This document shows, in pieces, positions 8,748 through 61,649 of a DNA stretch of 64,000 nt; the first letter of the stretch is position 1; each line of letters starts with the position of its first letter. Under the pieces are notes generated by a model that saw nothing but the letters and a program-made list of their open reading frames with translations, was not told where the DNA came from and did not search any database. This DNA is from Dudresnaya verticillata (Eukaryota): NCBI GenBank assembly GCA_977862235.1, contig OZ374563.1, forward strand, positions 620,001 through 684,000, in the 5' to 3' direction. The position numbers and the translations under genes were made by a program.

Positions 8748-11051
8748 TCAAGACTCTTTCGTCGCAGACGAATCGGATGGTACACCCACAGCGCCTTCGG
8801 CGGAATCACGCAACGCCTCTTCGTAGAGGTCGTCCTCCGTCCTCGACGGTACACTCACGGCAGGAGCCGGGGCGGACCGCAAAGGCCTTGCCACCGCAAC
8901 TGCCGGAGTGACTATAACATTCGCCGCAGGCGAAATGGGCGACTCATCAATCGCCTTCGGCGTCGTCGCGACAATATCCGCCAAAGGCGATGAAACAATA
9001 ACACTCGCCACGGGCGCAGAGCTCAAGCCATCGTTCGCCTTAGGCGCGGGCACAGCCCCATCCGCTTTAAGCGTAATCAACGACTCGTCGACCGCCTTTG
9101 GCGTCAGTTCAGAAACTGCCTTGATTGGCGTCGCTTCGTCACTCGCCTTCGGCGCTGTGAACCCAACACCCGTCAATGACGCAGGAGCCCCTGGCCCCTT
9201 TGGCACCGTCAACGACGCTATAGCGGCATTCGCTTCGCTCGCCACAGGCGGTACAGTCATATTCACGTCTTGAGACGCCGGACCATTTGCCTTAGGCGAC
9301 GAAGGCATCTCTGTCACACCGTCCTTCGACGCAGAACCTACAACACTAGTCGACTTCGGTGCGGGTCCACCCTGAGGTGGAACCGCAGTCGACAACGCTT
9401 GGCTCATCCACTCAGTGGGTGAGCCGCTCAGACCGCTAGTAGCGACGCCTGCCGCCTGCAATAACGCAAGCACGGTGCGGCGCTGTTCTTCGGTCCAAAC
9501 CGGCACCGAAGCTGGACCCCCAGAACCGTCTGCGACGTTCGATGCTTCGCCTTGAGGCGTCACGGTCGGCGGAGCCGACTCCACTATTGGCGTTGCCATA
9601 ACGGCATCGCCGTCATCGTCAGCGACGGGAACCGTGAGGTCCAGAGGAGCAACAGCTGGCAGGCCAGCTGGCACTCCACCGCCACTAACAGCGCCTCCGG
9701 GCAAAGCCAAAGACGCGGGCGCAGGCTCGGCAGTTGCCTCAACCGCCATAGGCGCAACAATGTCCGTCCCAGACGGGTTCTCCGGTCCGCCATCGGCGTT
9801 AAACGCATCCTCCTCGGCCATTAAGGCGCTCAAATGCGGAGGAAAATCACCGACAAAGTCGCAGCTCTTACGCAAACCACGCGGGTGATTACCCGGGGTG
9901 AAGCGGTCCGTTTTGCGATGGCGCTCCGCAATGTTCTTCGTCGTACGACGCTTAGTCCACGGGTTATAATGGACCCAATCGCCACAGGCGGAGTGAGTCC
10001 GACTCATCGCGAATCGCGGACGGTTCGCCTTACGGCGGTTGTTCGCATACGGCACCATTGCCGGGTCGTTCCAGTCGATCTCATCCGCCACAGCGCGCAG
10101 GTTCCAGAACTCCTCGGCGTTCCGGGACCCGCCAAATATTTCGACCAAGTCGAGGCTGCCAAGCTGAGCCACCACACGCGGGGGCAAGTGGTACATACGG
10201 AAGGTGTCATACACCTCCCATAACCACGCCAACGCCACATTGGCGACCCACTCCGTGTAAAACACGATCCAATACCTGGAATAGGGGTCGGTCATCAGCT
10301 CGGAACCAAGATACGTGACACACGGAGGAAGCTCTACGGAGAAACCCTCGCATATCTCAAACGCTCGCCATACAGGCGGTACCTTCACGAAACAAAACGG
10401 TAACTTACTATGCTCAATGCGATCGACCTACATGTCCTGGTAAGGTACGAATACGCCCTTTCGGCGACGCGTCTCGCACTCCCACCGGATACAACGCTCC
10501 CAAAAGAACGTACCCGTCCGATGCAAGTAACGAAAATCCGCTTTCAAGCGTACGCCTAACAGATAGGCCTCTCCCAACACGCGCGGTTCAACCGACACGC
10601 TCACGTGTTTGAGCGATAACGTCCCAAGACGAGCACCATATTCGGCTTCGCCGGCTGTGCGGTACTGTCCCGCATCATAATTGAACAGGGGCGGCGTTAA
10701 CGTCGACCCCGGATACCGCGTGAAGCGACGATACACGTCTGAGACGAACTGCGCGTGGACGTCCGCACGCGACTGTTCCGCTCGCACCCAAAGCCATTCC
10801 GCAGGAACGGCGCAGCGTAACTTCCATTCCAACGTCCAGACGACGCCGAGGGGCAGGCCCCCCGGCAAGCAACCGCTATTAGCGTAATGGGCAACCAATT
10901 CCTCCTCGCGCAAAGCCTCCTGGTCAAACCAGGGGGCTCGCGCGAAGAAATGTGCGTGATCGCGAGGGTTCTTTCCGACGAAGTCGACCGGCGAAGCGTA
11001 CACCGGCGCAGCCGCGGGCGCCGCCACCTGCATGCCATTGAACATCGGCAT
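8748..11051 (-). pseudogene. Antisense accessory ORF of element A (unknown family, 768 codons, one internal TAG)
   Basis: ORFs 10428-11051 and 8748-10388 are in one frame, joined through a single TAG (QDM*VDRIEHSKLPFCFVKVPPVW). Trp/Tyr-rich N-terminal half and Pro/Ala/Ser-rich tail with PKAxD repeats. Homologous to 59346-61649. Confidence 0.85.
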
Positions 11052-11536
11052 GACGTCAACGACGAGAATATGTTAACGCCAAAGGCGATGCTTGTGCAAA
11101 CGTCAAAGACGACTCGTGTTCTGCGCCACTGGCGAAAGCTTCAAGAAGCGTGCGTCGAAGACGATTACTGTTGTAACGCCTTAGGCGAGGAAACGAAACC
11201 CACGTCGACGACGTTCAGCAGCTGCGCCAATGGCGATGCTGAAGGCAAACGACGTCGATGACGATTAAGTTGCAACGAGGGATATACGATAGACGTCAAC
11301 GATGGAGCTCGTTATGCGCCACAGGCGGTGATGTCGGGGCAGCGTACGTAGCCGCACGAGTACGCAAACGCAACAAGAGCGGGGTTCTTACGGCACAGCC
11401 GAGGTCGCAGTCGCACGCGGCGCACCAATACAATACGCGAAGACGCGGGGACTCGCTCGCAAGGCGCGGAAGTCGGCAGGGACGCAACGGCAGAACGAAC
11501 GGCAGCAGGTTGAGGGTCGGGTCGTGTTCGCGTTTT

Positions 11537-11546
11537 GGGGGGGGGG
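11537..11546 (+). promoter_or_regulatory. Polypurine tract of element A
   Basis: G10 run ending 3 nt before the LTR start TGTGGTGCAA. Confidence 0.85.
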
Positions 11547-11549
11547 TCG

Positions 11550-12453
11550 TGTGGTGCAAGGGGAGGTGAGCCCTTTTTCGCTGAAAACGGGCAGACCAAA
11601 TACGTCGACCGACGGAGAAACCGCCACCGGCGCTCACCACCGCCGTTGGCGCGCGAACACGTCATCGACGGCTCACTGGGGCGCGCGCGCACACTGCGCG
11701 CCGCGCGCCACGCGGGCACTGTACGGTGATGGCCCGACGTGGCGCCCCGGGACACTGTAATACGGATCCGGATGGGATCCGGATCCGGTATCCAGATTGG
11801 CTATCCGGATCGCCTAAGATGTAAGATACGCGCCTGTAAGGCTGTGGGTATTCGCATTGCTGGCCCGATCCGGATGGGATCGGGATTGGACAAGTATCGG
11901 ATTAGATCTAATGCGCACGCTTTACAGTGCGCGCGCACGCACGGCTGTAAGGCCCACGCGTCCACGTGTGTGTGTAAGCACCCATACAGGGGATTGCACG
12001 GCAACCTGTCAGGCGCGCGGCTGCACGCAATCAGTGATCTGTCAGACGCGCCTCGGGACGACACGTGTCCCGAGTTCCCGCGCTACGCATACGCACCGCC
12101 GCCGCCGCACCGCCGTACTGTACTTAGGTAAGCCGTCCCAGACGTAACAGTAAACGCCCAGGAAAGCCGGCCTTGGCCCCAGACTTCCCTGTTCCGCACG
12201 CGCGTATCCTACCGCTGCCTACGGCTAAGCGTCTACCTCCCGTGCTTCCACCTCTACCATCGTCCTTGACGTGTTCCCTTTCTCTTTCCCTTTTCCTTCC
12301 TTTCCGCCTCGGGCGTTTACAGTCCGCCCAAGGCGTGCCCCTTTGCTCTACCACCAAGTTGCCCACGGCGGGACTACCTACCGCCGAGGGCGCAGCTACC
12401 CACTGAGCCCCGAACTGCTCGGCGGTCCATCGTCTACAGACGTTTGCACCACA
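11550..12453 (+). repeat. 3' LTR of element A (904 bp)
   Basis: Perfect 10-bp terminal inverted repeat TGTGGTGCAA...TTGCACCACA. Preceded by the PPT, and its end matches bases 1-23. Confidence 0.93.
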
Positions 12454-13769: not shown

Positions 13770-15923
13770 TTCTCGATGAAGGAAGTCTCCGGTGCAGAAC
13801 TACGTTTACTCTACGAAGAGGTCATCGATGCGCTTTCCACTGCGTACCGTATCACGCAGCTTTCAATTCGTAATACGCATAATCGAGTTCACGCAGAGTT
13901 CGACAATTTCCGCGCTGGGAAGGTCTGTAGAATCGAAGACTCACTCGAAAGTCTCCGGGATCTCGTCTCGGGAGTCAGCAACCGTTTCCTTGTGCTCGAG
14001 CGCAACGCAACCGACCCCGTGGGCAAAGCGAGTCACTCGCTTCCCCTTCGTAGCTCGCACGCGTTTACGGAGGAACAGTTAAACGCAATTCGTGACACCG
14101 TGTCCGCCGGGTTACCGAAGGAAAAGATTCGAAGTCGCGAAGATCGTCCCGATACACGTCCTGACCCCCGCAATTCGCCGCTAGTTCAATCCGTGCTAGG
14201 TCCGGGTGCCCAATCTAGGATACCGAAAACACGTATCCGAATCAGTCCCCGCGCCCTTCATCGCATCAGGCAACCGATGCCTTCCGCAACCCCCGTATCA
14301 ACCCCGCAGTATTCCGAGATTCGCTTCAAACACCGATATCCCCCGGAGGACCCGTAATCTAAAATCCTTTATCGCTCGAGGGACCCGTGTCATCGTTTTG
14401 GCACTGGGCACCGCTCGAGCCGGGCGTCGAACCGATTCCGACGCTCATTCCCGAATTCGCGCGGGCCTTTAGCTATTGATCGTGTCGACTCACGAATTCG
14501 TCACCTCGGGATAACCAACACGAAGTATTCCGAGGTAACACATCGAAAACGGTTTCGTGCATGCGTTCGATGATACCGAGACTCGAGAAGTTTACGGGAC
14601 GCGATCCGATTAAGGTTCTCGCATTTCTTCGTGATATTCGACAAGCGCTGAACGGAGTCGGGCTCACTCACCGAAGGAGCAGCAGTTCGAACTATTTCGT
14701 GGTTCCTCGACGAGACCGCGCTCAAGGTGTGTCAACACTATGCCTTCGGAGGCGTTCTTACTGGCAACCCGGTTTGCTGTTCCGCTATCGTGAACATATT
14801 GCTACAACGATTTCTCATGGAAGACGTAATCGCTGACGCACCCGATCGCGTGATTACCGCGAAGCAGAAGCCCGAAGAAGCCGAGATGGAATTCGCAACC
14901 CGTCTACAAGGCTACACGGATGTCTGCTCCGGTGTCTACGATTAATCTTCGTTAACACACCAATTTATTCGTGGACTATTATCTACTACATATCCTATCG
15001 TGGCCGACCAGGTTCTCCGATTACCGTTGTCCGAGCAAAAGAACTTCATGAGCGTACAACGAATCGCGCAAGCCGAAGGTATGGCGTGCCGAGCTCGCGA
15101 ACAACGTGACACCGCGGCCCAACAGTCGCGCGTGATTCGAAGAACCGAGCGTCTGCTACGTACCCGAAGAGTCGCCAAGCGCCCGGACGCACGATACTTA
15201 TCGAAGCTTGCGACACTCCTGGGAGTGAATTCGAGTACCCGATGAACGAATATCCGCAAATGGCCGTGATGATGATTCCTGCAGGAACAGGGTCCACCTC
15301 CGTTGCACCGAATACTTCGACAACGGTCTCCGTGGACGATAAGTTAGATCTCACGAGTCGCAGCGAGCGTTCCGTATCTGCACTTGTCCTCCCGATGACC
15401 GCGGAGTAGATCGAGATGGCGCGTTCGATGATCCCGAAGAACCAGGATGCGTGGCCGTGTTGGTTCTGTCGCGAAATCTTTCACCTAATGTATTCGTGTC
15501 CGTATCTCTCGAAGGAGCAAAACCTCTACTGCGCGTATCAGAACTATCTCTGTCAACTCGAGACGAGACCGTATACGCGTAATAACTTCTTGAATCGCGG
15601 TGCCGCAAGAGGTAATTCGTTCGCGTCCGTTGACAATCGAGGTCACCGTGGATAAGACTCCCGAGGATCGCGTGACAATCGCTTAAACCGAGACCTCCGT
15701 CGAGGCCATACACGCTACCAGAGGGGAAGAGCCCATCGTGAAGTCAGCCTTTGAGCGTCGAGGGCCGCCGACCGTCCTCCGCAATCCGAGACACGCGCAG
15801 GCCCCGGGCCGTCAATCGGTTCTCGCAGTCCGTGAAAACGTTCACGCGATTGAGCCGAGTCACCCGAATCTGCCCTCGGAGGCTTACGAAGACGTCGCGA
15901 GTAACGGAAGAGGTGATCGATAA
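13770..15923 (+). pseudogene. gag: gag of element B (fragmented)
   Basis: KFTGRDPIKVLAFLRDIRQAL and AKQKPEEAEMEFATRLQ match gag motifs of A and C. Knuckle CWFCREIFHLMYSC near 15456-15500. Confidence 0.75.
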
Positions 15924-16171
15924 ACCACCCCTTTGGACGCGGACGCTCGTAATTCGGATTCTAGTTCGAGTTCGGAAAACGAGTAAAGGCGAAGACGCCC
16001 GTTGTGTCGCGTACTTCGTCTGAATCCATTCCCCGAGACACTCCGCATATTCCGATTCCGAGAGCCGCTGCGATGCGAAGGAAGCGCGCTGCACGACGAC
16101 GAGACCGAAAGTGATTTCGAGTCCTCGCGAAAGCCGCTTCGTGCGAAAACAATTCGAAGAAGATACCGATC

Positions 16172-19100
16172 TTGAAGATCGAACCCGAAGTTACCACCGA
16201 GGGATACGTTTGCTCGATAATTTCGGAGATCTTCCTCGTGACCGGATCCATTGGCCTCGATGCCTCCGTAATGACGCCGCATACGATTGCAGTCGATACG
16301 TGTTCCGGTTACAACCTAATAGCCCGGGCTGCGTTACCCATCGGTTGGGAAGCGAACGCGTCCAAGATGGAATCAGCTCCGAGGCTCGCGTCCGCTGATC
16401 GCACCCCGTTGCGACTCGATGGTATCGTTTACCTGACAATTCGCCTTGGAAACGTTCGATACCGCGTACCCTTCGTGGTTGCGGAGAAATTCGCAGTCGA
16501 CGTTCTCCTTGGAACTTCATGGATGGACGCGCATTTACGAAGCATCGAGCTCAGCCCACGGAGGCTCTTCACGAAGAGTGGAAGCGCGATTCCGATTATC
16601 AATCGCATTGCTGTATCGGCTCCGCCCGCAATTAACTCGAAACATCCGAAGCACAAATTCGAGAAAACACTATCGAAGCGACATCACCGCGACCTCCACG
16701 ATTGGGACCGAGACACCCCCACCATTCGTTTGAACCGCCGCTTCAAAATACCGAGTTATTCGCAGAAGCTAGTCACCTTGACCTCGGAAGCACTCAGGCT
16801 AATTCATATCGAACCGAAACCTTCGTTACAACACCGACACGGAGTACGGTTAACGAACGGGATACACGAAGTCTGCCCGAATCGCGAGTTTTCGGCGGTG
16901 GTGGCGAACTTCACGGATAAGCCTGCAGCTCTACCGAAAGGAACCGTCATCAGATACGCAGCTCGAAACCGCTCGCGATTTCTACACCCGATCGCGAAAT
17001 CGCGGGTTCATTGGCCAAGGTCCTCAACATCTCTACCTTATGTGGTCACGACGACTCGAAGTCAGCCGAAGAATCCGTATCCACGAAGGAAAACAGCTCA
17101 CGAAGGGCGCCGCGACTGCAGCAGCCGAAGCCACTTCGAGGTCCCGCGATTGGGAAGACCGCGTAGACCTTTCGAACATACCCGACGAAACTATGCGAAA
17201 CGAGGTCCTCGAGATGCTATGTAAGCACGAATCGATGTGGAATAGAGACCTCGGAACGATCACAGCCACGGAGCATCGGATCGATCTACAACCCGGGACT
17301 CTACCCATTCGTTCGATGCCCTACCGTCAAGGGCCGCAATACGCAAAATCGTCCGTAACGAAATCGACTGTATGCTTAAAGCCGGAGCAATCGAGCCAGC
17401 CACCGGTGGCCGAGGCCTCGGAGTGGGCGTCCCCCGTAGTCCTGGCACCGAAGAAAGACGGAACACTTAGTTTTTGTGTAGATTACAGAAGAAGCAATAC
17501 GAAGACACTATCAGACGCGTACCCGCTTCCCCGGATGGAAGATTGTATCGATTCACTCGGAGACGCTTCAATTTTCTCGACACTCGATTGTAACAGCGGG
17601 TACTGGCAGATTCCGGTTGCCCCGGAAGACCGCGATAAGACTACGGTTACTTCGTTTCTCGGAACTTATCGTTATCTTCGTATGCCCCTCGGATTGAAAA
17701 ACGCACCGGCTACGTTTCAACGTGGACTCGATATCAATATATCCGGAGTCCGTTGGCAGTGCTGTCTCGTTTACCTCGATCACGTGATCGTTTTCTCCGC
17801 GAATCTTCGTGAATACATCGCGCACCTCGATCAAGTCCTCACGCTACTTCGTAACTCCGGGGTCTCGCTCAAGATGAAGAAGTGTTTCCTTTTCCGCAAA
17901 CGAGTCGACTATCTCGGACACGCAATTTCTCCGAGGAAGCTCAGTATGGCCGACAAGAGCTCCGAGGCATTCCGATACGCGAAGTTCCCGAAGAAACTCA
18001 CGGAAGTCCGTTCTTTCCTCGGCGCGTGTAACGTATACCGAAGATTCGTGGAAGACTTCGGGAAAATTACGCGACCGCTGACGAACATGACACGAAAGGA
18101 TGCCGATCCTGACTACGAGAATCCCACGGACGATCAGGTTGCCGCATTCGAAACGCTCAAACGGGAGCTCATGTAACCGCCGATACTCCGGTTACCGCAA
18201 CTCGGGAAACGATGCGTCATCGATACGGACGCGTCTGCGTATCAACGCCGGTGCGCATTGCTACAGGAGCAAGATAACGAAGAGTTCCAACCGGTGGGAT
18301 ACTGATCTTATTCGTTAAACGAAGCCGAGAAGAACTACTCCGCAACCGAGCGCGAATGCTACGCAGTCGTATGGGCGGTTTCTTCGTTACGTCCGTATAT
18401 CGAAGGGACCCGGTTCACCGTGCGTACTGACCACGACGCGCTCCGCTGGCTTCTTTCTCTCACCGATTCGTCAGGGCGACTCACGCGATGGAGGCTGCTC
18501 TTAGCTGAATTCAACTTTGAAATAGTGTATCCCCCGGTCGCGTCCACCAGATTCCCAATGCCCTCTCGCGATTGTTACTCCCGCATCGCGAACAACCCGT
18601 AGTCGACGACGAAGTGCCTACGTTTGCCTCGGATCAAAACACCGGAAATAACGAAGCACGCTTCCGAAAAGACGTCCCGAAAACTATCCAAAAAGCAAGA
18701 GACCCGGTTCTCATCAATACGCGATCTCGCAAACGTCAATCGAAAGTTACGGTGATTCTCCACGACTCCATGCGGACGACTACGCCCTCAAAACGGGTAA
18801 TTCGAGCAGGCACTACGCAAAGACCCACGGAGGTCCCGAAAGATTACGAAGCTCACCATCCTCAAAGCCACGAAGGTTACGCCCACGCACACTATGGAGA
18901 TCTACGTGATGAATACGCAGGACAAAACTATGTCTACGATGACTGCGATTTATGGGACGATATCGATGAAGATGATCCGTTTGACCTTTACCAAATCGAT
19001 CCTAACGACGAACCGCGTGACCTAACCGACGTCAAACCCGTAGACCTAACCGCGCCGATTACCGTATCCGAAATCCTCGAGGGACAGCGTATTGATTCGT

Positions 19101-20603
19101 TCTGCCAAACGGTGCAAGCACGACAATCGAAAACGAAGGATAGTATATTTCCCGAAGATGGAGACGGTCTCCTGCGATGAACGCATCCGACAATTCCGAA
19201 GTTAATGCAAATCGTATTGCCCGAAACGCTCCGACCGCGGTTACTTACGCTAGCGCATCATTCGTTACTAGCTGGCCACCTGGGGCAGAATCGCATGTTC
19301 TACTCACTTCGTTGAACGTATTGCTGGCCTTAAATGGCTTCCTATATCGCATCTACGGTCCGAAGTTGCAAGCACTACCCGAGAAATCGGATTCGCTTAC
19401 GAAGGAACATTCATCGCTTGAAGCTCCTCCCCGCTACGCGCCCACTCGATTCGGTCGCGATTGACATCTTAGGCCCGTTGCCACGAACGAAATCCGGACG
19501 CAAGTTCATCCTCGTGATTACAGATCGATATTCGAAGCTGACCCAGGTGGCTATACTACAAGTCATAACCGCGTATTACGTCGCAGTCGCGTTTTGCGAA
19601 GTTTGGATCTTCAAGTATGGACCGCCAGCCTCGGTGCTCTCCGATAACGGAAAACAATTTACTTCGAAGTTCTTTCAGGGCGTCTGCCGCCTACTCGGGT
19701 TAACGAACGTGTTCACCTCCGCATATCATCCGCAAACGAATGGACAAACCGACCGACGTAACCGGACTATCCTCTCGCTGCTTCGAAACTACATGAACGA
19801 CCACAAAACAATTGGGACAGATATGTCTCCCCGTTAACGTGTTCGTACACTTACCACGATCATCGGTCTACGAAGACAACTCCGTTCCATCTCGTTTTAT
19901 CGCCACCGCCGCCCGAATTCACCGTCAAGCATCGCTCCGGTAAGCACCGACCGAAATCCACGGAGTATATTCCAAACGATTTAATTAAGAGACTCGATGT
20001 CACAATCACCTCCGCAAGAACTTCGTTACAACGCATGAAAAACCGATACAAGCGCGACTTCGACAAATGCATCCGACGCACGAAGAGCCGCGTCAAACCC
20101 GGAGACTACGTGTTCCTCGATACCCACGATGGGAAAACGAAACTTCCGAAGTTGAAATCCCAGCGGACGGGCCGTACAAAGTGCTCTTCAACGATACGCG
20201 TACACTTGTGAGCGATCGCAAGGGCCTCGTTGAAAGCGTCTCCGCGGCCCGCTGTATCTACACGCCACCACCTCCGATTTCGCGACCGTCCATTACGAGA
20301 CCCGAAGACATTGCGGAAAAGGTCAACGAAGGCCCCGAGTACATTGTAGATCGTATCCTCGATCACTCGACGGACGAAGACGGGAAATTCGTGTTTCGTA
20401 TCAAGTGGGACGGCTACGCGATGCCTACGTGGGAACCTCGTACGCACGTGCCGGAAGAACTCGTTTCGCGCTACTTCGCAAGGCTTCGAAGCCAAGCGTA
20501 CCCGCATGATCCCGTGCTACTCGCCCACGAATGGATCTCCGACTGGGACCCCGTCTGGTTTCGTGGCCCCGACTTTGTGATCCGCAACCCGCAGCCCGAA
20601 TAA
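16172..20603 (+). pseudogene. pol: pol of element B (fragmented)
   Basis: Protease AVDTCSGYNLI; RT WASPVVLAPKKDG, LDCNSGYWQ, YLDH (mutated YLDD); RNase H TDHDALRWL; integrase AIDILGPLP, SDNGKQF, YHPQTNGQ; chromodomain EYIVDRILDH...FRIKWDGYAMPTWEP. Confidence 0.93.
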
Positions 20604-20788
20604 CGCCTACGCCCACTCGAGTCGTCCTACTAGAAGCTACCAGTCGCCCCACCAGTTGTCCCGTGCTGACAGATCACTGCGATCGAGGACGGAAATATAC
20701 CGCAGGGATGTAACATTGCGAGAACGTTTCTCGAGTTGTCCGAACTGGAAAGAAAAGACGGGTAGGGTGGGGCACGCTTCCCCATTTG

Positions 20789-24020: not shown

Positions 24021-24025
24021 TGTTA

Positions 24026-24084
24026 ACCGGTAGGCCATGGTGCACCATGACCATGATGGTCATGGTGAACCATGGCCTACCGGT
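24026..24084. repeat. 59-bp near-perfect palindrome
   Basis: ACCGGTAGGCCATGGTGCACCATGACCAT-G-ATGGTCATGGTGAACCATGGCCTACCGGT: 29-bp arms with 1 mismatch and a 1-nt centre. Confidence 0.95.
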
Positions 24085-28131: not shown

Positions 28132-28178
28132 AAACACAATCGTTTTTAACATAGGAGGTTGTTCAGATATACATGTAT

Positions 28179-50135: not shown

Positions 50136-50136
50136 G

Positions 50137-50154
50137 TGGTCTCCCGACCTAGAA
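50137..50154 (+). promoter_or_regulatory. Primer binding site of element C, probably tRNA-Tyr
   Basis: TGGTCTCCCGACCTAGAA(TCG), identical to the PBS of A. The extra TCG would pair with T-loop CGA. Confidence 0.88.
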
Positions 50155-50642
50155 TCGTTTTCAGGGTCGGCCCCTTTTTACTACCTCATCCGCAAGTCGT
50201 CGTTCGGACCTTCCCACGGGACGAGAATTCCCCGTGCAAGAATCCAAGGAACTACTTCCTGAGGGTGAAATCCTAGTCGGCCAAGTGTCGACGGTTTCTC
50301 AGGTTCATATCAAGCTTCGAAGTTGCGTTAAATTCGAGGCAAGCAACTGCCACCGCTTCTGCGGTTTTTAATCGTCTACAAGGGAGAAGATCCTGGTCGT
50401 GGAGTGACGCCCCTTCAAGGAACTCTTCCTGCAGGTTATCGTGACACCTATCATCAAAAACACGTCTGTATACGGGCTGTGCGGGCGCGCGCGCTGGGAG
50501 TTCCACGCGGACAGAATCGCCCATAACCCCGAGAACTACGGTTCTAAGAAGTTTGCCATCCTATGGAGAAGTTCCCCGATTAGTGCAACTACAGGATCGA
50601 GTCCTACGTTTTAAGGTTGTCGATAACAACCTCGTTTAGAAG

Positions 50643-53324
50643 ATGCCGACATCTAACGGTGAAACCACCCGCCCAGGCTTAACAAGCCGGGGTGGTAGCC
50701 GTACCGGCAGCTTATCCTCCGTGAGGACCACGGGAGCAAGAACCCGTGCTGTAATAGCCGCTTTGGCTCGAGGTCCTACAGTAGGAGAAGTGGAACGCCC
50801 GCCCCGAATGGCGGGCGCACCAGGAGACGAAGACCCGTCTGCCCAGGGAAAGGGACAGATCCCTGAAGGAGAAAATACGGCCCGGACTGCAGCCGCAAGC
50901 ACCGCCAACATCGGTGCGAATGAGGGTCCGAACCCTAGTATGCCGCCGCCGCCGATGTTTCAAGCTGGTTACAGCCAACACGGCACAGGCGGACTGGCCT
51001 TAGAAGAAGAAACAACTTCATCGCTTCCACCTGATATCGGAATGCCGATGAGAACGAAGGCAAACTCAAGCGACCAACGGTGCTTTACGGAGCGTGAAAT
51101 TGGTCACTTGGTTGAGACCGGCATAGAGAATGCTCTCGGAACTAGCGTATTGGCGCTGCTCGAAAGCCAGGCGGATGAAACCCTCACACGGGTGAAACGC
51201 TATTTCGACGACGCCACCGCTCGTCGAGACGACCAGCTACTGGCTAAGTTACAAGAAGTGGTCATTTCTCGTTGCCAACAACGCCCCCTGAGGGGTTTAG
51301 AAGAGGAAAGGGTCGAGACCCTACAAGCCCAAGTGGACTCATTGGGGGACCAATTGGAATCGGTTCACCTTGAATTAGATGAAGCCACGAAGGCTGCCGA
51401 CCTTTCCAGGATAGAAGCCGCAATGGCTATTGCGGACGTTCAATTTAACGTAGACAATGCACAGTGCGTTGAACAGGACAGAGCCATCGAGGTCCTAAGG
51501 AAAGAACGCGATGAGGAGAAGCGTCGTGTCGCTTTTCTGGAATTGCAGATGCGGCGCGTAATCCGCGAGAGGGATAATATCCCTGAAGTCATGCGACGGC
51601 GCTCACCAGTGCCTCGCGGTACGTGCGACAGGCGTAGGAGGCTACCCCCTAGGGGGTCGGGCAGTGGGTCCCAAGGTGAAGGAGATGGAGGCCGTTGCCA
51701 ACAGGGTTGCAAGTGCACCAGACCAATTGGGTCTTCCGCACACCGCGACCAAGTTGATTCTCATCGTGACAGATATTCAAGCCATCGTCACGAGGAGAAT
51801 CCTCGGTCAGGGTCTCACCCTAATCCGGGTCCCTTGGATGAAGAAGGACTGGGTTCCCGTTCGCATTCTAGACCGTCATGGTCTTCCTGGAGGGGTCCCC
51901 GACGTTCCGGTGTTAAGGAGCTGACTCCTAGGAATCCTGCTTTCATACAGGTGCTGTACTATAGAAGGTATAGGTTATTGAACCTGGATGATTACCGCGG
52001 GCCCGAGGTGACCGAGGTGACCACGAATAAAATCAAACGCGTCAAGTCCGTTATGCGGAGTCGCCGTTTTGACGGGAGTGACCCGGTGTCAATTATTGGC
52101 TTCTTAGCCACGCTGATGAGGCAGCTCGATCAGGCCCATATCAGCGAAGGTGCCGCTATCCTCGTCATCCCCGAGTTCCTCGAGAAGGATGCGAAGGATA
52201 TGTTTGAAGCGAAGTTTGACGCTGCGGGTGACGACAATGGTGGTTTCACCGAATGGCCCGAAGCCGTGAATTACCTTCTCCAGACCTATGCCAAGGATGT
52301 CTATATTGAGAGGATTGCCTCTGAGATGGACACGATGGCGCAGGAGCCAGATGAGGACGAGGTTACTTTCTCGAGAAGGTTGCAGAACAAAGCACGTCGA
52401 GTCGCTGGGCTGTACACCGAACAAGACTTGATAACCAGGTTTATTCGGGGGTTGTTACCAGCGGTGAAGCCGCTTTTAAGTACGTCGTTCTTGGACCCAA
52501 GGACTGCCAGACTGGCGGATTACGTCGAGCTTGCGACTGCACAGGGAGATTCCCATCGGGCGCTAGTGGGTGGCGGACGAACGCCAAAAGCGAATAGGAC
52601 GCTACCAAGGAAGACCTTAAAGAAGGTTCGTACCCACAAGTCAGGGCGGGCGCTCCTAATTCGCCAGGCGAAGGATGCATCCGATTCGGATACTTCAAAG
52701 AGCAGCGGCTCTGACGCGGAAAGCGAAGACGCAGTCGTGGCCGCCATCGCTAACGAAGCGCCACCATCCACCGCGACCCAATCGGATTCGTGGTCGACAC
52801 AGTATTACTACGACCAACCGTATCACGGTGAAGTTGACGCGGTACTGCAGAACTACAATAATAGGCTCCCAGCCTGGGCACAGCCAACCAGGACTCAACG
52901 CCCTGGTTGGGTAACGCTTGAAGACCAACCCAATGATATCTGCTTCGAATGATACGCCATTGGCCATAAAAAGCCCAACTGTCCACATTTGGCTCGAACC
53001 GATGAGCAGTCTTTTGAGACTTTAAAAAGAAGACAGTTTCATCAACTATCACACCAGCAAAAAGCGTGGCTGGCGACCGTTGGCCGACTGCCGGAGTTCG
53101 CTAACGAGCGAGTGCCCGCCGGGCCGCCCATAGGGCAACGGATGGTTCCCCGTCAAAATTTGGGTGCAAATCAAGGGGGAAATCGACAGGTTCAATTTCA
53201 ACCTCGACTGAACCACCCCATCGACGCTCCGAGGCAAACGCTCAGGTCACCACGCCAAGGGTCTCGTCCCTTTCCACCACCTCCACCGCTACCGCGGTCG
53301 CCCGCAATGAAGGCGAAAAACTAG
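50643..53324 (+). pseudogene. gag: gag of element C (one in-frame TGA in the zinc knuckle)
   Basis: 769-aa ORF with a long coiled-coil N-terminus, KELTPRNPAF..LYYRRYRL, FDGSDPVSIIGFL and knuckle ICFE*YAIGHKKPNC. The same frame continues to MKAKN-stop. Confidence 0.92.
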
Positions 53325-56300
53325 CAAGGGGGGAACCGGTTAGGTACACCACATATCCCAGGTGACATCGGACCCCCCCGATCGGTACCTTGAGTCCAGC
53401 TCCTCGAGCTACCGCTTTGAAGGCTTCTCATCAACGAATCGACCGGTTGTTAGTGAATCTGTCACTTCTCTTCCCAAGAAAATCTTAGCGCGTCCCGTGG
53501 GCTTACCCCCCGGACGGAAGTATCACGAGTATTGTAAGGATCCCGTTTGCTCCTTGTCGCGCTACAATTATAAAGTAGCTGCGTCCATCGGGAATTCTGT
53601 TGACAATCTTACTCGTGTGCTCTCCGTACTGGATACAGGGGCAGGCCCTAATCTCATCCGCGCGGATGTTCTATCACCGAAAGACAAGAAACGGATTTCT
53701 ACAACACGGTCAATTGTGAACTTGACCTCCGCGTCAAGTCACCGGCTAACTACACTGGGAACAGTCTCCCTGATAATTAGGCTCGGGTCCTACACGGTTC
53801 GGCAACCTTTTGTTGTCGTAAGGGCATTGGCAGTAGATGCCATATTGGGTTGCTCGTTTATCGATACCCACGTGGAAGGGTTACGCGTCCGCCAACAGAA
53901 CATGGTTCTTCGCGACGGGTCCATTCACCCAATTCTACGCCGCCGATGCGGTATACCTCGTGAGGGCAGGTCTGACGAACCAATGGACGTTCCCCCGTTA
54001 CCTACATCGCGACTCATTCGCGTCGCACAAACTACTACCTTACTGCCCGGCAGTGAGTCATGGGTTCCTGTTACCTGTTCCGCCAAAGGAACACATTTCC
54101 TGGAATCCCTACCCCGCTTATACGAGCGCCGACAAGTCGTGTTGATGAATGGAATCGTCAACATTCAAGAGAACCGGCTCTTTCACTTCAAGGTCGCGAA
54201 CGTTTCTTCGCGTCCTCAACGGATTTCCAAGAATCAAAGCCTTGGAAAGGCTGTAATGGCGCCCACGCAGACGCCGGTCTACACTGTCTCCATCGAGGAT
54301 AATGTTCCCGACAGTGACACGCTTCCCTCGTCCGAAACATTTTCCGATGTAGGGGGGCGGGGCTTGCTGCTGCTCTGAAGACGGATATAGACTCTAAGCC
54401 TGGAATCAAAATCGCGACATCAGCGACAACCGCTATTACGGTCGATGACCTCGCGCTGGAACACCTGTCCACTTCGGATCGGCGCCGCGTGCTCAAAATG
54501 CTGACACCGTTCGTCGGTATGTGGGACGGACAACTCGGCACCATCAAAGTGACCGAACACCGTTTTGAGCTACAAGAAGGTTCGAAACCTGTGTTTTCGC
54601 AACCTTATCGGTCGGACCCTAACGCCCGTCAAGCAGAACAGGATGAGGTCGACAAAATGCTCAAAGAAGGCGTTATAGAGCCTGCACGCTCTGAGTTTGC
54701 GAGCCCCGTCGTCTTAGTTAAGAAGCCCGACGGGTCACTCGGCTTTTGCGTTGACTATCGCAAGCTGAACGCGATTACAGTGAAGGATACGTATCCTCTG
54801 CCGCACATGGACGAGTGTTTGGACTCCCTGGGCGAGGAGCAATATTTTACAACCTTGGACTGCAACTCAGGCTACTAGCAGAATCCGGTTTCCCCGAAGG
54901 ATAAGCATAAGAATGTTTTTAAATGCCACGTGGGCTGCTTCCAATTTTGCAGGATGCCCTTTGGGCTATGCAACGCTCCAGCGACCTTTCAGCGAACGGT
55001 TGACATCCTCTTATCAGGACTTCGATGGAAATCGTATACCTCGACGATATTATCGTACTCTCTGCGACTGTCGACAATCGCAGAGAATACGATAATATCG
55101 TCGATCGAAGAGCATGTCACGCACGTAAGAGAGATTCTCTCTGTATTACAAGAAGCAGGGGTCTCCTTCAAACTTAAGAAGTGTAACTTCTTCACAAAGA
55201 GTGTTGACTACTTAGGGCACATCATCCGTCCGGGTTTATTAGAAGAGGCCACTAAGAATACGCAAGCCATCGAAGGCTTCAAGGAGCCGACCACCCAGAC
55301 CCAGTTGCGGTCATTCATCGGTCTATGTAACGTCTACAGGCGATTCGTGCCTAACTTCGCTCGCGTGGCAGCTCCGCTCAATGCCCTCCTACAGAAGGAA
55401 GTGGGCTTTGAACTACCGCAGTTCAATGAACGTCAACGCGAGGCGTTCGGATTGTTGAAGACAGCGCTAATAGCGCCTCCTATTCTTAGGTTGCCACAAG
55501 AGGGTAAGGCCCTATCGGTGAATACCGGCGCGTGCGACTACCAAATTGGTTACGAGCTGATGCAAGCTGAAGAAGACGGGACTCGACACCCGATAGGCTT
55601 CTGGAGCCGAGGACTGACGAAGGCAGAGAAGAATTATTCTGTAGGCGAAAAGGAGTGCCTCGCAGTGGTCTGGGCGGCACAATTGCTCAGACCATATCTA
55701 GAAAGGTCCCACTCTGACCTGTATACAGACCATCAAGCGCTGAAATGGATGATGAGCATGACAGATGCTTCTGGACGGTTGGCCCGTTGGAGATTACGCC
55801 TCCTGGAATACGACTTCACGGTCCAGTACCGAAAAGGCAAAAAGAATCAGATTGCTGATGCCGTATCTCGGTTGCCTACGTATGGCTTCACGCCATGGGA
55901 ACCGGACCTGGAGATCCCGTGTTTAGTCCTCGAGACTGATCCGAGGGAGGAACCCTGCGAAAGGTCGCGACCGGAGCCCAACACGCGACCGTTGGAAGCG
56001 TGGGAAATCGAACCCGTCGATGAGTCCCATTCGGATGACGAAATGGTCATCGCCCAAGCGGCCGAGAAGGAATCTGGACAAAAGGGACTATCCCTCATCA
56101 CCACAGAAGAGTTGCTTCGTGAGCAGAAAACAAATGAATTCTGTATCTGGGTCCGAAGGAACCTCGAGGCCGGGAAGCCTAGTTGTTATCTCGAGGACGA
56201 ACGAGGGCTCCTAATCCGGAAGTCGTATATCGACAAGGCGATACAGGTTCTCATACCTCGTTCTCTCAAGGAAAGGGCGTTACACCTAGCCCACTATCCC

Positions 56301-57908
56301 GAGATGGCGGGACACCCAGGTGGAACCCGGATGTATCATAACCTGCGAAGACAGGTATATTGGCCAGAGATGGCATTGGATGTGTACGTCACAGTGCGTA
56401 ATTGTGTCAAATGCGCACAGGAGCGGGTGAAGTTGCGGAAACATGCTTCGCATATGAAACTCTTCCCGGCAACCATGCCGTTAGAGTTCGTAGGAATCGA
56501 TATCCTGGGCCCGTTACCCCGCTCCGGGAAAGGAAACGAGTTCCTGTCGGTTATGACGGACCGCTTCTCAAAGCTGACGCGAGCGATACCGATGAAAACG
56601 GTAACCGCCTATACAGTGGCGAAGGCGTTTTGCGACCATTGGGTCTTTATCTATGGACCGCCCCGTTACATCCTTTCAGACAATGGGTCTCAATTTTCCT
56701 CTAAGTTCTTTCTCGCTGTGTGCGATATCCTACGGATTCGGAACATGTTCACGTCGACATACCATCCCCAAACTAATGGGCAAACCGAGAGGTTCAACCG
56801 CACCATCCTAGCGGGACTTCGCCACTTCATAGCGGAAGACCAGAGGGACTGGGACGAGTTCACCTCAGCGCTCACGTACGCTTACAATACGACAGTGCAT
56901 CGCGCTACAGGGTTAGCCCCTTTTGACTTGGTTTTGTCAAACCCGCCGACTTCACTTCTATTGGAACAAGCGGAAACGGGAGACATTGACGGGATACCCG
57001 CTACGAACGTCAAGAAGCTCCTAACCGCTCGGCTGGAAAAGCTCATGGATACGGCACTACCTAGGATGCAACTAGCGCAAAAGCGCTATGAGACCAACTT
57101 CAATAACCGCATTCGACCGGCTAACCAAAGGGTACGTCCTGGGTCATGGGTATTCCTCGAACCGGAAACCAAAGTGAAGGACACTTCAGTTGTGGCGAGG
57201 GAAGGGAAACTGTTTCCGAAAGCCCTTGGGCCATATAAGGTTCTCGAGAGAGGAACCCATGTGGTGGTTCTCGACATCAAGGGCGACAGAGAAACAATCT
57301 CTTTGGACCGAGTCACTTTGGCTCCATCGCCACACGAAGCGCCGCTGGCACTAGACATGAGTCCCACGGTAGTGGAAATGCCACCGGAGACAGGTGTAGC
57401 ACCTTCAAGTAGCCCAACTGGGCCAAATGACGGGCACCTCACAAACGCCACTGGGCCCCCGATGAATACCGCATCAGGCGGTAATGGACCGGCGCACCCC
57501 GAATCCCCTAGTGCTGAAGGCGAGACACTGGCTGACACACTTGGGAATGGGCAACCTAGCGGTGCCCATACGGCGCCTGTCGTGCCACAAACCCAGGAGA
57601 ACGCTCCTATGGACGATGAAGTGGACGCGCCATCGCCTGCACCGACAGTCACGGAAGGGGCGTCAAGCCGCAAATTCTCGCGCTTCAAGAAGGCGCCATC
57701 ACGCGAACACGTGTATGAAAGGATAGTTTCCTATGACCCCGACACACACCTCTATCGTGTGCGGTGGTTCCAGAGCCCGGCCTGAAAGGACACATGGGAA
57801 CCAAAACGGCATCTCCCTCACAATTTAGTTGCAGGGTATCACCGCCAAAAAGGCGGTGATACATACCTTTCCCAGATAATTAGCGAGGCAAACACGCGCG
57901 TCGAGTAA
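53315..57908 (+). pseudogene. pol: pol of element C (frameshifts, stops, rearranged RT active site)
   Basis: VLDTGAGPNLI; FCVDYRKLN, LDCNSGY*; RNase H EKECLAVVW; integrase GIDILGPLP, SDNGSQF, YHPQTNGQTERFN; chromodomain YRVRWFQSPA*KDTWEP. Confidence 0.95.
55041..55104. repeat. 64-bp palindrome (inverted duplication) inside RT
   Basis: TCGACGATATTATCGTACTCTCTGCGACTGTC / GACAATCGCAGAGAATACGATAATATCGTCGA, 2 mismatches, no spacer. Confidence 0.95.
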
Positions 57909-59345: not shown

Positions 59346-61649
59346 CTAATCCGAGAGGAGGTCAATGACCTCGTCATCGCCAAGGGGCGGGTTAGGTGCA
59401 GAAGGCGCCGGCGTCGTCACGATGCGGCGCACCTCGCGGATGATCCGCCTACCCTGGCCACGACGCGGTCCACGACCCCGGCGAGTACCCTCCATTGTCG
59501 TTCCTCGAGCCTCTTTGGCTGTCGTCTGGTCCACATCTATCGGCGCAACATCGCCCTCCACAGGAGCCAACTCCTCCTCTTCCTTGAGCACCAACTCAGT
59601 TTTCACGAGCACTTCGTCGGTAGGCTGCAAAGCCTCATCAGCTTGACCGGGAGCCACCGGCGTAGATGCCCTCTCCTCCACTTGGGGAGAATCACCAGTC
59701 AAAGACTTAGCAGGCGTCTCGAGTGAGGCAGGTGCTGTGACAGATGCAGCCGAAGGGGGCGGCCCTGAGGAGACCCCAACAGCCACCTCGGGAGTGGGGC
59801 GGTTAGCCGATGCTGACTCCGACTGTGGGTTATTCCCAGCGGGCGCGCCGCTAACGGTAGGAATCTGGCGTGGAACCACGGAGCGGAGTGGGACTCCAAC
59901 TCGAGAAGCCGATGGCTGGGAAGGAGGCACCGTGACTCGCGGAGCGATGTTGGGCGCGCTAGCATCAGCCGTGGCAAGGGGCTCCTCACGCGGGACCTTT
60001 GACAAATCAGCCGCGGTGGCTTCCCTCGCGTCGATAATCGGAAGGAGCGCTAAAGAGCCTTGGGCTGAAGAACCCGGCTTACCGTAGCCGATGCCGCGGC
60101 GAACCTTAGAGCCAGGCTCTTTCTTGACTTCCACTCCAGGCTCACCTTCAGCCTTGACTCCGCCCAGCGGGGGAAACTTATTCAGTTGAGTCAAAAGGCG
60201 GTCAATCGGACCTGGAGTTCCTATCCAATGAGCCTCATACTCGGCTAGCGCGTCCTCAACCCAGTCAGGGAGACTGTTAAGGTTGAGGGAGTAGATGCCC
60301 CAATGGGCAGCAAGACGAATAGCCAACCCACGACGGCCAAATAGATCACGGATCTCGGCATCAGCCCGGTGGTGGTGTGTCAGCACTGGAGCGTACGGAC
60401 CCTGCGGCTCCCCATCGACAGTTTCGTCGAAGGGGGGCACCTCATCAGGGTGCTTAGGCCCTTCATCGCGCCAACGCACACTCACCCAACCCTTGGTGTA
60501 ACCAGTGCGACGCTCGCCTTCATCCAGCAGGATGGGTTCACCCTCGGTGGGTAACGGTGCCATCAAATAGCCAGGAAGGACTAGGTGCCACTTGATGGCG
60601 TCGAAGTCAACCCAATCGCCGCGGTCGTACACCGGCGTCAGGTGGCTGGTGTTCTCAGGCAGATGCCTATTGCGTTTCGAAACGCCGCTCCAGCGAATAC
60701 GCTCAACAAAGACCAAGAGTTGGTCCAAGTCTGAGGCGTCGGCCGAGTTGGCGGTGAAGGCAGCAGCGCCTATAGAAAGGATGGCCCCACGAAGCTGGGC
60801 GCTGATGAAGTATAACAAGCCCCGACGGGCTTCGTAGACGAATACTTGCGTCACTAGCACGATCCACTCATGGCGAAAGATGGACCATAAGACGCTATCG
60901 TCTACGTTGGCATCCATCATCTCCAAGCCGAGGTATGCTATGATGGTCGGTGTACCGGCGGGCATGGAATAGGATACCTCCATCTCGGCGTGATCTCCCG
61001 CCACTTGAGGATACTTGATCCTATAGAACTCCGGGTGAATAGAGGTAACCTCTTGACAGTGTCCTGGGACGAGACAACCGGTGCGGTGACGATTCCTACG
61101 CTCAAAACGCATGATATCGGAAGGCATAGCCGTTTGTGGGTTGTCCATGGCAAACTTGAAATTGGACGTCTCGTCCCAACGGACGACCCGAGCCGTGGTG
61201 TAAGGGTTGTTGTCCCTGCCGCTGCGGATCAGCGGGCGCTCATGTGCCACCATCCCGAGGTCGAACTCACCCATATCGTGGACGTGTTGGATCTGCTCCA
61301 GCTCATAGTTGAGCTTATTACACAACGTGGCTGTGTAGCGCACCTCGTGGCGGAAGCGTGGGTGCGCTAAGTCCCACTGCCACGGACCCGTAAGGGCGGG
61401 CAGGCGACGGGTCATGCCGGTTAGCAGCGCCAGACGCGCTCGAGCATGGGAATTCCAAGTGCGGCGCTGCGCCTGCCGCGCTCCATGCCGACGGATGTCG
61501 GTGCGATCAGCGCCAGCATGCGCTTTGAGGTGCGCGAGGTCGGTGCGCACCCGCCAGTCGCAGCTCTCCTTGACCGTGAAAGGCACTCTTGCCTCATCCA
61601 CTTCAATACCCAGCACACCGGTCCTTGAGCCAGCGGCCCCATAAGCCAT
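59346..61649 (-). CDS. Intact 767-aa antisense accessory protein of element C (unknown family)
   Basis: ATG-initiated and uninterrupted. Core TPTIIAYLGLEMM...WSIFRHEWI...VYEARRGLLYFISAQLR...ERIRW...GDWVDFD. Pro/Ala-rich tail with a basic RRGRGPRRGQGRR stretch, ending EVIDLLSD. Minus-strand AATAAA at 59252-59257. Confidence 0.9.
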   Translation of the reverse strand: MAYGAAGSRTGVLGIEVDEARVPFTVKESCDWRVRTDLAHLKAHAGADRTDIRRHGARQAQRRTWNSHARARLALLTGMTRRLPALTGPWQWDLAHPRFRHEVRYTATLCNKLNYELEQIQHVHDMGEFDLGMVAHERPLIRSGRDNNPYTTARVVRWDETSNFKFAMDNPQTAMPSDIMRFERRNRHRTGCLVPGHCQEVTSIHPEFYRIKYPQVAGDHAEMEVSYSMPAGTPTIIAYLGLEMMDANVDDSVLWSIFRHEWIVLVTQVFVYEARRGLLYFISAQLRGAILSIGAAAFTANSADASDLDQLLVFVERIRWSGVSKRNRHLPENTSHLTPVYDRGDWVDFDAIKWHLVLPGYLMAPLPTEGEPILLDEGERRTGYTKGWVSVRWRDEGPKHPDEVPPFDETVDGEPQGPYAPVLTHHHRADAEIRDLFGRRGLAIRLAAHWGIYSLNLNSLPDWVEDALAEYEAHWIGTPGPIDRLLTQLNKFPPLGGVKAEGEPGVEVKKEPGSKVRRGIGYGKPGSSAQGSLALLPIIDAREATAADLSKVPREEPLATADASAPNIAPRVTVPPSQPSASRVGVPLRSVVPRQIPTVSGAPAGNNPQSESASANRPTPEVAVGVSSGPPPSAASVTAPASLETPAKSLTGDSPQVEERASTPVAPGQADEALQPTDEVLVKTELVLKEEEELAPVEGDVAPIDVDQTTAKEARGTTMEGTRRGRGPRRGQGRRIIREVRRIVTTPAPSAPNPPLGDDEVIDLLSD

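What the first reader, a model, noticed from the sequence alone, without database searches (positions are those of the whole stretch)
8748..61649. Unrecognised antisense accessory protein family carried by chromovirus-like retrotransposons, five diverged copies in one window
Seen: elements A and C each carry a 2304-bp frame antisense to pol, between the chromodomain and the PPT. By eye they align in colinear blocks (A vs C): IRWECETRRRKGVFVP / IMRFERRNRHRTGCLVP; LPPCVTYLGSELM / TPTIIAYLGLEMM; WIVFYTEWV / WSIFRHEWI; DEIDW / ERIRW; GDWVHYN / GDWVDFD. The same core recurs near 47.0 kb (TPTVVGYF...ILRSEWAMFVLFSWL), 43.0 kb (PPRVIRYFGL...FRDSEY) and 35.9 kb (TPPVVYYLFTEL...LLRIEYNVMFMLVW). Each copy has an aromatic-rich globular domain followed by a disordered tail. 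Established: canonical chromoviruses encode only gag-pol. Antisense 3' ORFs are known from plant Tat-lineage elements such as Grande and RIRE2, and TE-encoded anti-silencing factors exist (VANC of VANDAL elements). Inference: motif conservation without visible DNA similarity implies long-term selection on a third retrotransposon gene, possibly a chromatin or anti-silencing effector. It does not look like env (no signal peptide or clear TM anchor).
Basis: partly seen in the sequence, partly recalled or inferred. Interest (0 to 1): 0.9.

Follow-up and report, generated by a model that had tools for sequence, protein, structure and literature searches.

The report
Undescribed antisense gene of seaweed retrotransposons
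Two jumping genes (LTR retrotransposons), likely from a red seaweed, each carry an extra gene on the opposite strand whose protein belongs to a large family that matched no known domain or fold in our searches and that likely helps the element stay active in the nucleus.

Summary
The family is real. Elements A and C are Ty3/Gypsy retrotransposons with an integrase chromodomain. Each carries a 767-codon antisense frame between pol and the polypurine tract; C's is open, A's holds one in-frame stop. A search with C found 114 protein clusters. The only named relatives are hypothetical proteins of the red algae Gracilariopsis chorda and Gracilaria domingensis (2 of 30 clusters looked up). A profile built without window sequences scores A 171 bits, the 47-kb relic 41, the 36-kb relic 22 and the 43-kb relic 3 (shuffle maximum 5.4). 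So 4 of 5 copies are confirmed and the fifth is only suggestive. Only A and C are shown to lie antisense to gag-pol; neighbour B lacks the gene. The conserved region is about 350 aa and folds confidently (core pLDDT 91.6), with no Pfam, Foldseek or VIA match (best Z 2.5 of 48,161 chains). Antisense 3' genes are known from plant Retand elements, but those encode TRP28. Function is untested; a nuclear regulator or anti-silencing factor is likeliest. Genomic context outside this window, expression, and identity with the red-algal gene PAG1 could not be tested.

The parts
1..41 (+). Element A: last 23 nt of the 5' LTR and tRNA-type primer-binding site (26-41), identical over 16 nt to that of C
   Evidence: 1-23 equals 12431-12453; PBS
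114..7424 (+). Element A gag-pol in several broken frames: RT, RNase H, integrase, chromodomain (about 7227-7373, aromatic cage residues present)
   Evidence: Pfam RVT_1, RT_RNaseH, rve, Chromo E 9e-10; closest solved RT is Ty3
8748..11051 (-). Antisense accessory gene, copy A: 767 codons, one in-frame TAG at 10428-10430; folded region in the first ~380 codons, then Pro/Ser/Ala-rich tail
   Evidence: 171 bits; 278 bits with the longer profile
11537..12453 (+). Element A polypurine tract (11537-11549) and 3' LTR (11550-12453, 11-nt terminal inverted repeat)
14667..20720 (+). Element B: broken Ty3/Gypsy gag-pol with chromodomain, followed within ~100 nt by a PPT-like tract; no family gene (internal negative control)
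   Evidence: no profile domain in 20600-26300
35764..35961 (+). 36-kb relic of the family core; carrier unknown; about 4 kb from a Plavaka/CACTA-like transposase
   Evidence: 22 bits against shuffle maximum 5.4
42922..43880 (-). 43-kb candidate relic: two colinear weak pieces (43880-43770, 43128-42922); probable, not proven
   Evidence: 2.8-3.2 bits; chain 8.5 against 5.5 maximum in 67 controls
44795..45722 (+). PPT-like tract and LTR-like unit (44813-45722, terminal inverted repeat 9 of 10 nt) just upstream of the 43-kb relic: same geometry as A and C
   Evidence: related copy on the minus strand ending near 63320
46680..47452 (+). 47-kb relic: stop- and frameshift-broken family member, probably spanning about 45.9-48.6 kb with its tail; orientation to its element ambiguous
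   Evidence: 41-49 bits plus 7-10 bits; PPT-like tracts on both sides
49486..50152 (+). Element C 5' LTR (49486-50135) and PBS (50137-50152); 5-bp target duplication TCTAC at 49481-49485 and 62831-62835
50640..57870 (+). Element C gag-pol with several breaks; chromodomain-like end with a stop inside
59346..61649 (-). Antisense accessory gene, copy C: open 767-codon frame; folded region about aa 20-390, disordered tail ending in a SIM-like motif (aa 761-765)
   Evidence: chance of such an open frame 2e-11
62186..62830 (+). Element C polypurine tract and 3' LTR (62200-62830); the LTRs differ at 15 of 631 aligned sites

Best explanation
This is a conserved third gene of chromodomain-bearing Ty3/Gypsy retrotransposons, lying antisense between pol and the 3' LTR in elements A and C of a host that is likely a red alga, and it likely encodes a nuclear protein that helps the element stay expressed against host silencing. 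SHOWN: position and strand in A and C; membership of A, C and two relics in one family of at least 114 diverged clusters; protein-level conservation; absence from neighbour B, so gag-pol elements can exist without it. PREDICTED: a ~350-aa mostly helical fold plus a disordered tail. INFERRED: it is transcribed on its own from a promoter in the ~500-nt spacer or the 3' LTR (ATG 490-540 nt from the PPT), so it can be made while the genomic RNA is off and can act in trans; the Arg/Trp/Glu-rich domain binds the element's DNA or chromatin; the tail recruits host chromatin factors through SUMO-interacting and basic motifs. Confidence is about 0.9 that it is a real transposon accessory gene and about 0.4 for this mechanism.
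For: 114 hits at E<=1e-3 among 1.84 billion representatives. A scores 171 bits on a profile that never saw it. Profile-profile match of the C-side and A-side groups: 100%, E 7e-43, 315 columns. Codon-position pattern of selection. A/C identity is 21% in the core against about 49% in pol, as expected of an accessory protein. Multi-copy behaviour: four G. chorda paralogues in one 90% cluster, on contigs of four different lengths; 16 of 30 clusters hold 2-9 members. No transmembrane segment. Conserved Arg residues R35, R72, R98, R184, R187 (75-99%). SIM-like motifs in 4 of 55 tails (shuffle mean 0.24, maximum 3 in 1000) and an acidic variant in 6 of 55 (mean 0.43, maximum 4); basic clusters in 9 of 55 (mean 3.7; 11 of 1000 shuffles reach it). 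Precedents read: antisense TRP28 genes of Retand, with predicted DNA binding and nuclear Grande protein (PMC11963269); VANC (PMC10398659); chromatin-type accessory genes of red-algal DNA transposons (bioRxiv 2025.02.11.637652); PRC2 silencing of TEs in C. merolae (bioRxiv 2022.10.24.513474).
Against: No direct evidence of function, location or expression. SIM-like motifs are missing from most tails and from A; the pattern was chosen after seeing examples, and seven patterns were tried. The HeH-like tail helix pair reaches only E 0.13 and 0.26 in 2 of 15 hand-picked segments, far below cut-off, and gave no LEM/SAP hit in the PDB profile search. No likeness to VANC, PMD or TRP28 was detected. 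The many invariant acidic residues fit an enzyme equally well. Among near-identical cluster members the domain is not clearly more conserved than the tail overall (1.4% against 1.7%, p 0.054, pairs not independent). No DNA context was obtained for any of the 114 outside homologues, and the 47-kb relic may be sense to the LTR-like sequence downstream of it.
Confidence: 0.4

Rival explanations
1. The folded domain is an enzyme of unrecognised fold that modifies or cuts nucleic acid or chromatin, comparable in role to the methylase/SET and 2OG-oxygenase accessory genes of red-algal Plavaka transposons.
For: Invariant acidic and basic residues over ~350 aa: D93 95%, E102 89%, E183 91%, R187 99%, E200 90%, E224 96%, E261 88%, W320 99%, D345 84%. 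Red-algal transposons carry enzyme-type accessory genes (bioRxiv 2025.02.11.637652, section 8).
Against: No conserved His or Cys at 60% or more. No known catalytic fold retrieved.
Confidence: 0.2
2. The protein acts after transcription: it binds the element's RNA, suppresses small-RNA silencing, or assists particle assembly or nuclear import.
For: Arg/aromatic-rich domain with a long disordered tail; retroviral antisense and accessory proteins include RNA-binding regulators (PMC11963269, discussion passage).
Against: No match among viral structure predictions or PHROGs; SIM-like and basic motifs point weakly to the nucleus.
Confidence: 0.17
3. The family is a mobile accessory gene shared between transposon classes and may be the already named, function-unknown PAG1 of red-algal Plavaka and Mutator elements, here captured by LTR elements. 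This bears on novelty more than on mechanism.
For: PAG1 has no InterPro or HHpred domain, and PAG genes move between TE families in Florideophyceae (bioRxiv 2025.02.11.637652, sections 8 and 21). The 36-kb relic lies about 4 kb from a Plavaka/CACTA-like transposase, with tandem repeats between.
Against: The sections read name DNA transposons and Fanzor-encoding elements as carriers, not LTR elements. Another long unassigned gene (about 25-27.4 kb) lies next to the transposase and does not match the family profile. The PAG1 sequence was not seen.
Confidence: 0.13
4. It is a red-algal host gene family picked up by 3' transduction and carried without benefit to the elements.
For: Named members are annotated as ordinary hypothetical genes; B lacks the gene; both window copies sit in decaying elements.
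Against: Same position, strand and spacing in two elements whose pol proteins are only ~49% identical; 114 clusters at 50% identity and near-identical multi-copy clusters fit repeats better than a host gene.
Confidence: 0.07
5. It is an env-like fusion or movement protein.
For: Position between pol and the 3' LTR.
Against: Antisense strand; no hydrophobic segment above 1.48 in A or C and none above 1.9 in 54 long homologues; no viral fold match.
Confidence: 0.03

Closest known systems
Antisense pol-3'LTR ORFs of plant Retand/Tat elements (Grande, RIRE2, Retand; TRP28, PF04195)
   Same: Ty3/Gypsy carrier, antisense strand, position between pol and the 3' LTR, unknown function with a proposed regulatory role (PMC11963269).
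   Different: Retand is a non-chromovirus lineage of flowering plants; here the integrase has a chromodomain and the named relatives are red algal. No PF04195 match in the window proteins or homologues.
VANC anti-silencing proteins of VANDAL (Mutator) transposons and the plant mobile domain (PF10536)
   Same: Separate TE-encoded accessory gene, fast-evolving, proposed to act on its own element; C's LTR has short repeated TGTAAGG units that could be targets.
   Different: DNA transposon carrier; no Pfam or structural likeness detected here; activity shown for VANC, untested here.
Plavaka accessory genes PAG1-3 of red algae (bioRxiv 2025.02.11.637652)
   Same: Red-algal TE accessory genes, mobile between TE families; PAG1 has no recognisable domain.
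   Different: Described on DNA transposons. PAG2 and PAG3 have methylase/SET and ParB/2OG domains that are not seen here. Identity with PAG1 is untested.
Chromoviruses (Tcn1, Chlamyvir, Galadriel and others)
   Same: Gag-PR-RT-RH-IN order with a C-terminal chromodomain; aromatic cage residues present in A and B.
   Different: In the plant survey read, extra ORFs typify the non-chromovirus OTA group (PMC6317226, passages). Lineage was not tested; brown-algal Gypsy elements gained chromodomains independently (PMC12477816, passage).

Membership tests
Ty3/Gypsy LTR retrotransposon | PR-RT-RH-IN order between LTRs, with PBS, PPT and target duplication | tested here: met
   Pfam order; Ty3 best PDB hit E 5e-71; LTRs, PBS, PPT and 5-bp TSD for C
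Chromovirus | Chromodomain at the integrase C-terminus | tested here: met
   PF00385 in A (E 9e-10) and B (E 5e-8); C has a homologous, stop-broken segment
Chromovirus | RT/RH/IN phylogeny inside the chromovirus clade | not testable with these tools
   No reference set of chromovirus RTs was available; a chromodomain alone is not sufficient (PMC12477816)
Retand-type antisense ORF (TRP28) | Antisense ORF between pol and the 3' LTR | tested here: met
   A and C
Retand-type antisense ORF (TRP28) | TRP28 / Transposase_28 domain (PF04195) | tested here: not met
   0 of 84 aligned members at E<=0.1; 0 of 51 proteins at E<=0.01, partly overlapping set
VANC / plant mobile domain | PMD (PF10536) or VANC sequence or fold | tested here: inconclusive
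   No Pfam hit; fold searches list none, but a missing row does not exclude a fold
VANC / plant mobile domain | Sequence-specific binding to the own element and loss of silent marks | not testable with these tools
   Needs ChIP/DAP-seq and reporter assays
Plavaka accessory gene PAG1 | Sequence homology to Bostrychia PAG1 | not testable with these tools
   The sequence is not in the main-text sections read; supplements not seen
Env-like protein | Signal peptide and transmembrane anchor, sense strand | tested here: not met
   Antisense; maximum 19-residue hydropathy 1.42 and 1.48; no dedicated signal-peptide predictor was run
HeH/LEM/SAP motif (tail module) | Profile match above the curated cut-off | tested here: inconclusive
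   HeH E 0.13 (12.4 bits, cut-off 28.9) and Ish1 E 0.26, one segment each of 15; no LEM/SAP among 24 PDB rows

The most novel reading that the evidence does not exclude
Red-seaweed chromodomain retrotransposons carry their own VANC-like counter-silencing protein with a fold absent from the PDB. It is made from an antisense promoter, binds short repeated motifs in the element's LTR, recruits SUMO-linked chromatin factors, and has diversified into more than 100 lineages in an arms race with Polycomb-type silencing. No comparable case appeared in the literature searches run here.
Probability: 0.25. Interest if true: 0.9.

Novelty: new variant of a known kind. Interest (0 to 1): 0.68.

Why it matters
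Extra ORFs of plant LTR elements are mostly heterogeneous and their function has long been an open question (PMC6317226, PMC11963269). Here one domain of about 350 aa is conserved across more than 100 diverged lineages, folds confidently and matches nothing in the searches run, which gives defined residues to mutate and an open reading frame (copy C) to express. If it counters silencing, it would explain how LTR elements expand red-algal genomes and would extend sequence-specific anti-silencing from DNA transposons to retrotransposons. Even without that, it reclassifies a set of 'hypothetical' Gracilariales genes as likely transposon cargo and offers a candidate new fold.

Tried and rejected
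No whole genome is held for this window. The word-indexed protein search found nothing three times, even with an alignment of known members, so its blanks say nothing. DNA context for homologues: five scans of viral contigs (and 75 with the RT of A), two of JGI metagenome contigs (47, 76) and one of prokaryote genomes (77) returned no confirmed locus. Sequencing runs: none was listed and no RNA holder was listed. ESM Atlas did not hold either query. Pfam: no family above cut-off for the window copies or homologues; PHROGs 0 of 11; PDB sequences 0 at E<=1. Fold searches: Foldseek PDB and BFVD had no hit at E<=0.001. VIA wide gave best Z 5.5 (rmsd 3.8, 99 aligned, generic helical bundles) for the 490-aa model and best Z 2.5 (rmsd 6.3, 81 aligned) for the 217-aa core; the second look gave Z 2.0. 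The N-terminal 160 aa were not folded and searched alone. These absences do not prove a new fold. Homodimer prediction: no answer, score 0.00, alignment not used. Earlier scan notes: nothing. An iterated profile of the tail helix pair recovered 9 of 57 tails (8 seeds plus 1) and not A or C. No PAG2/PAG3 Pfam domain in six frames tested near the Plavaka-like transposase. Rejected: env (no hydrophobic anchor); shadow of a sense-strand gene (the sense frames hold 12-38 stops); meaning in the equal 2304-bp length; post-insertion selection on C (LTRs differ by only 2.4%, so an open frame could persist by chance).


Full report
1. The observation. Copy C is an open 767-codon frame on the minus strand, 61649-59346; its base composition gives about 2e-11 for such a frame by chance, and the other five frames hold 17-51 stops. 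Copy A, 11051-8748, has the same length but one in-frame TAG at 10428-10430. The equal length is probably chance: A has three possible start codons and homologues vary widely in length.

2. The carriers. A and C are Ty3/Gypsy elements on the plus strand (Pfam RT, RNase H, integrase; chromodomain E 9e-10 in A; Ty3 is the best solved RT relative). C is complete: LTRs 49486-50135 and 62200-62830 differ at 15 of 631 aligned sites, with a 5-bp target duplication. A's 3' LTR is 11550-12453; only 23 nt of its 5' LTR are in the window. A and C share a 16-nt tRNA-type primer site. In both, the antisense ATG lies 490-540 nt upstream of the polypurine tract and the stop 1.3-1.5 kb downstream of the chromodomain. 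Both gag-pol regions are broken, so these copies are decaying. A third element, B (about 14.7-20.7 kb), is about as distant from A as C is (pol 50% and 49%), ends in a PPT-like tract about 100 nt after its chromodomain frame and has no family match. The gene is therefore accessory.

3. The family. Pairwise A-C similarity is weak (E 2e-5) and there is no DNA match. phmmer with C residues 2-450 against 1.84 billion cluster representatives gave 114 hits at E<=1e-3, 40 at 1e-10, at 24-44% identity. I looked up 30 of the 114 clusters: 28 are unnamed ENA, Logan or JGI proteins, and 2 are named, as hypothetical proteins of Gracilariopsis chorda (four paralogues) and Gracilaria domingensis. The host of this window is therefore inferred, not shown, to be a red alga. 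A profile from 98 cores (out of 133 proteins then held; shorter ones dropped; no window sequence) scores C 210 bits, A 171, the 47-kb relic 41 plus 10, the 36-kb relic 22 and the 43-kb relic 3, against a maximum of 5.4 in 20 locally shuffled windows. C's score is partly circular; A's is independent. The 43-kb relic has two colinear weak pieces with a chain score of 8.5, above all 67 control segments (maximum 5.5), by a scoring rule of my own; I treat it as probable. A and C fall in different halves of a midpoint-rooted tree of 82 cores, and alignments of the two sides match at 100%, E 7e-43, over 315 columns. Selection on the protein is visible: over 188 aligned A/C codons identity is 0.43, 0.45, 0.31 by position, and GC1/2/3 is high-low-high as in gag-pol. 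Among near-identical cluster members the result is mixed: 1.4% differences in the domain against 1.7% in the tail (p 0.054, non-independent pairs).

4. Context of the relics. None has its own gag-pol in the window. The 43-kb relic lies upstream of a PPT-like tract and a 910-bp LTR-like unit with terminal inverted repeats (44813-45722), the same geometry as A and C. The 47-kb relic has a PPT-like tract on the minus strand at about 45735-45748 (antisense reading) and another on the plus strand at about 49209-49221 (sense reading), so its orientation is open. The 36-kb relic lies about 4 kb from a broken transposase at 28246-31668 that I call Plavaka/CACTA-like from a recalled motif; Pfam gave no hit for it. 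Eight scans for DNA around relatives found no locus, so the antisense-in-LTR arrangement is shown for two elements only.

5. Structure. AlphaFold2 with 84 sequences models C 1-490 at mean pLDDT 78.7, with 271 residues at 90 or more, covering about aa 20-140 and 175-390. The 217-aa core alone reaches pLDDT 91.6, pTM 0.87, mostly helical. Foldseek finds nothing at E<=0.001 in PDB or BFVD. VIA against 48,161 chains gives best Z 2.5 for the core, below the 7-8 the tool reports as typical for unmatched models; this is compatible with, but does not prove, a new fold. Conserved residues (C numbering) include W32, R72, D93, R98, E102, E183, R184, R187, E200, P217, E224, P234, Y239, W255, E261, W320, P339, G344, D345 (77-99%). 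There is no conserved Cys or His and no transmembrane segment. Tails are Pro/Ser/Ala-rich and largely unalignable. SIM-like motifs occur in 4 of 55 tails (shuffle mean 0.24) and at the end of C, not in A; basic clusters occur in 9 of 55 (mean 3.7) (patterns recalled and chosen after seeing examples). A short helix-Gly-helix unit recurs in several tails and resembles HeH/LEM by eye, but reaches only E 0.13 and 0.26 in 2 of 15 segments.

6. Mechanism. Shown: strand, position, conservation, dispensability. Predicted: fold and disorder. Inferred: separate antisense transcription from the spacer or 3' LTR, action in trans in the nucleus, binding to the element's DNA or chromatin, recruitment of host factors through the tail, and relief of silencing. 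I put this at 0.4. An enzyme of new fold (0.2) and an RNA-level role (0.17) are the main rivals. C's LTR carries four TGTAAG units at 25-27 nt spacing and A's carries four, possible targets, untested.

7. Comparison with what is known. Antisense pol-3'LTR genes are typical of plant Retand elements, which are non-chromovirus and mostly encode TRP28 (PMC11963269: part 1 of 5 and passages). The plant survey found extra ORFs heterogeneous and typical of the OTA group (PMC6317226: passages). VANC is the tested anti-silencing case (PMC10398659: abstract) and derives from a MAIN-related protein (PMC13547354: passages). Red-algal Plavaka DNA transposons carry PAG1-3, of which PAG1 has no known domain (bioRxiv 2025.02.11.637652: abstract, sections 8, 21, 32 and passages); its supplements were not seen and could show that PAG1 is this family. 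PRC2 silences TEs in C. merolae (bioRxiv 2022.10.24.513474: passages). Brown-algal Gypsy elements gained chromodomains independently (PMC12477816: passages), so 'chromovirus-like' is as far as the evidence goes. PMC3605345 and PMC6431247 were read in passages and add nothing on this gene. Ten full-text searches showed no description of this gene in their listings; Repbase Reports and most subscription papers are outside the library.

8. Verdict. A real, apparently undescribed accessory protein family, shown antisense in two chromodomain-bearing Gypsy elements, with two further confirmed relics and one probable. It works like the Retand antisense genes in placement and possibly like VANC in role, but is a member of neither by sequence. 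New variant of a known kind; interest 0.68.

Noticed in passing
window 28246-31668 (-), with 24900-27400 (+) and 21400-23900 (-): Broken transposase with a CACTA/Plavaka-like catalytic region (recalled motif, no Pfam hit) flanked by long unassigned broken genes, an 87-bp x6 tandem array (27608-28131) and a 29-bp hairpin (24026-24084); may be a degenerate giant Plavaka with accessory genes.
   Followed up: partly
window 23290-23886 (-): 198-codon frame whose N-terminal part looks by eye like a Tudor/SH3-type barrel; no Pfam or PHROGs hit.
   Followed up: partly
window 49523-49606, 62237-62320 and 11820-11978: TGTAAG repeated four times in each LTR of C (25-27 nt spacing) and four times in the otherwise unrelated LTR of A; 12 of the 32 occurrences in the window lie in these three LTRs.
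   Followed up: partly
window 26-41 and 50137-50152: A and C share an identical 16-nt primer-binding site that is not the usual plant tRNA-Met type (recalled); the tRNA was not identified.
   Followed up: no
window 44813-45722 (+) and about 63320-64000 (-): Two diverged copies (about 73%) of another LTR family in opposite orientation; element C is nested inside a further LTR-like sequence starting near 49222.
   Followed up: partly
window 34300-35050 (+): Degenerate pyrimidine-rich repeats of 85-97 bp directly upstream of the gene that holds the 36-kb relic; possibly its 5' leader.
   Followed up: no
window 43270-43580: AT-rich stretch with a 52-bp direct repeat that separates the two halves of the 43-kb relic; insertion or intron.
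   Followed up: no
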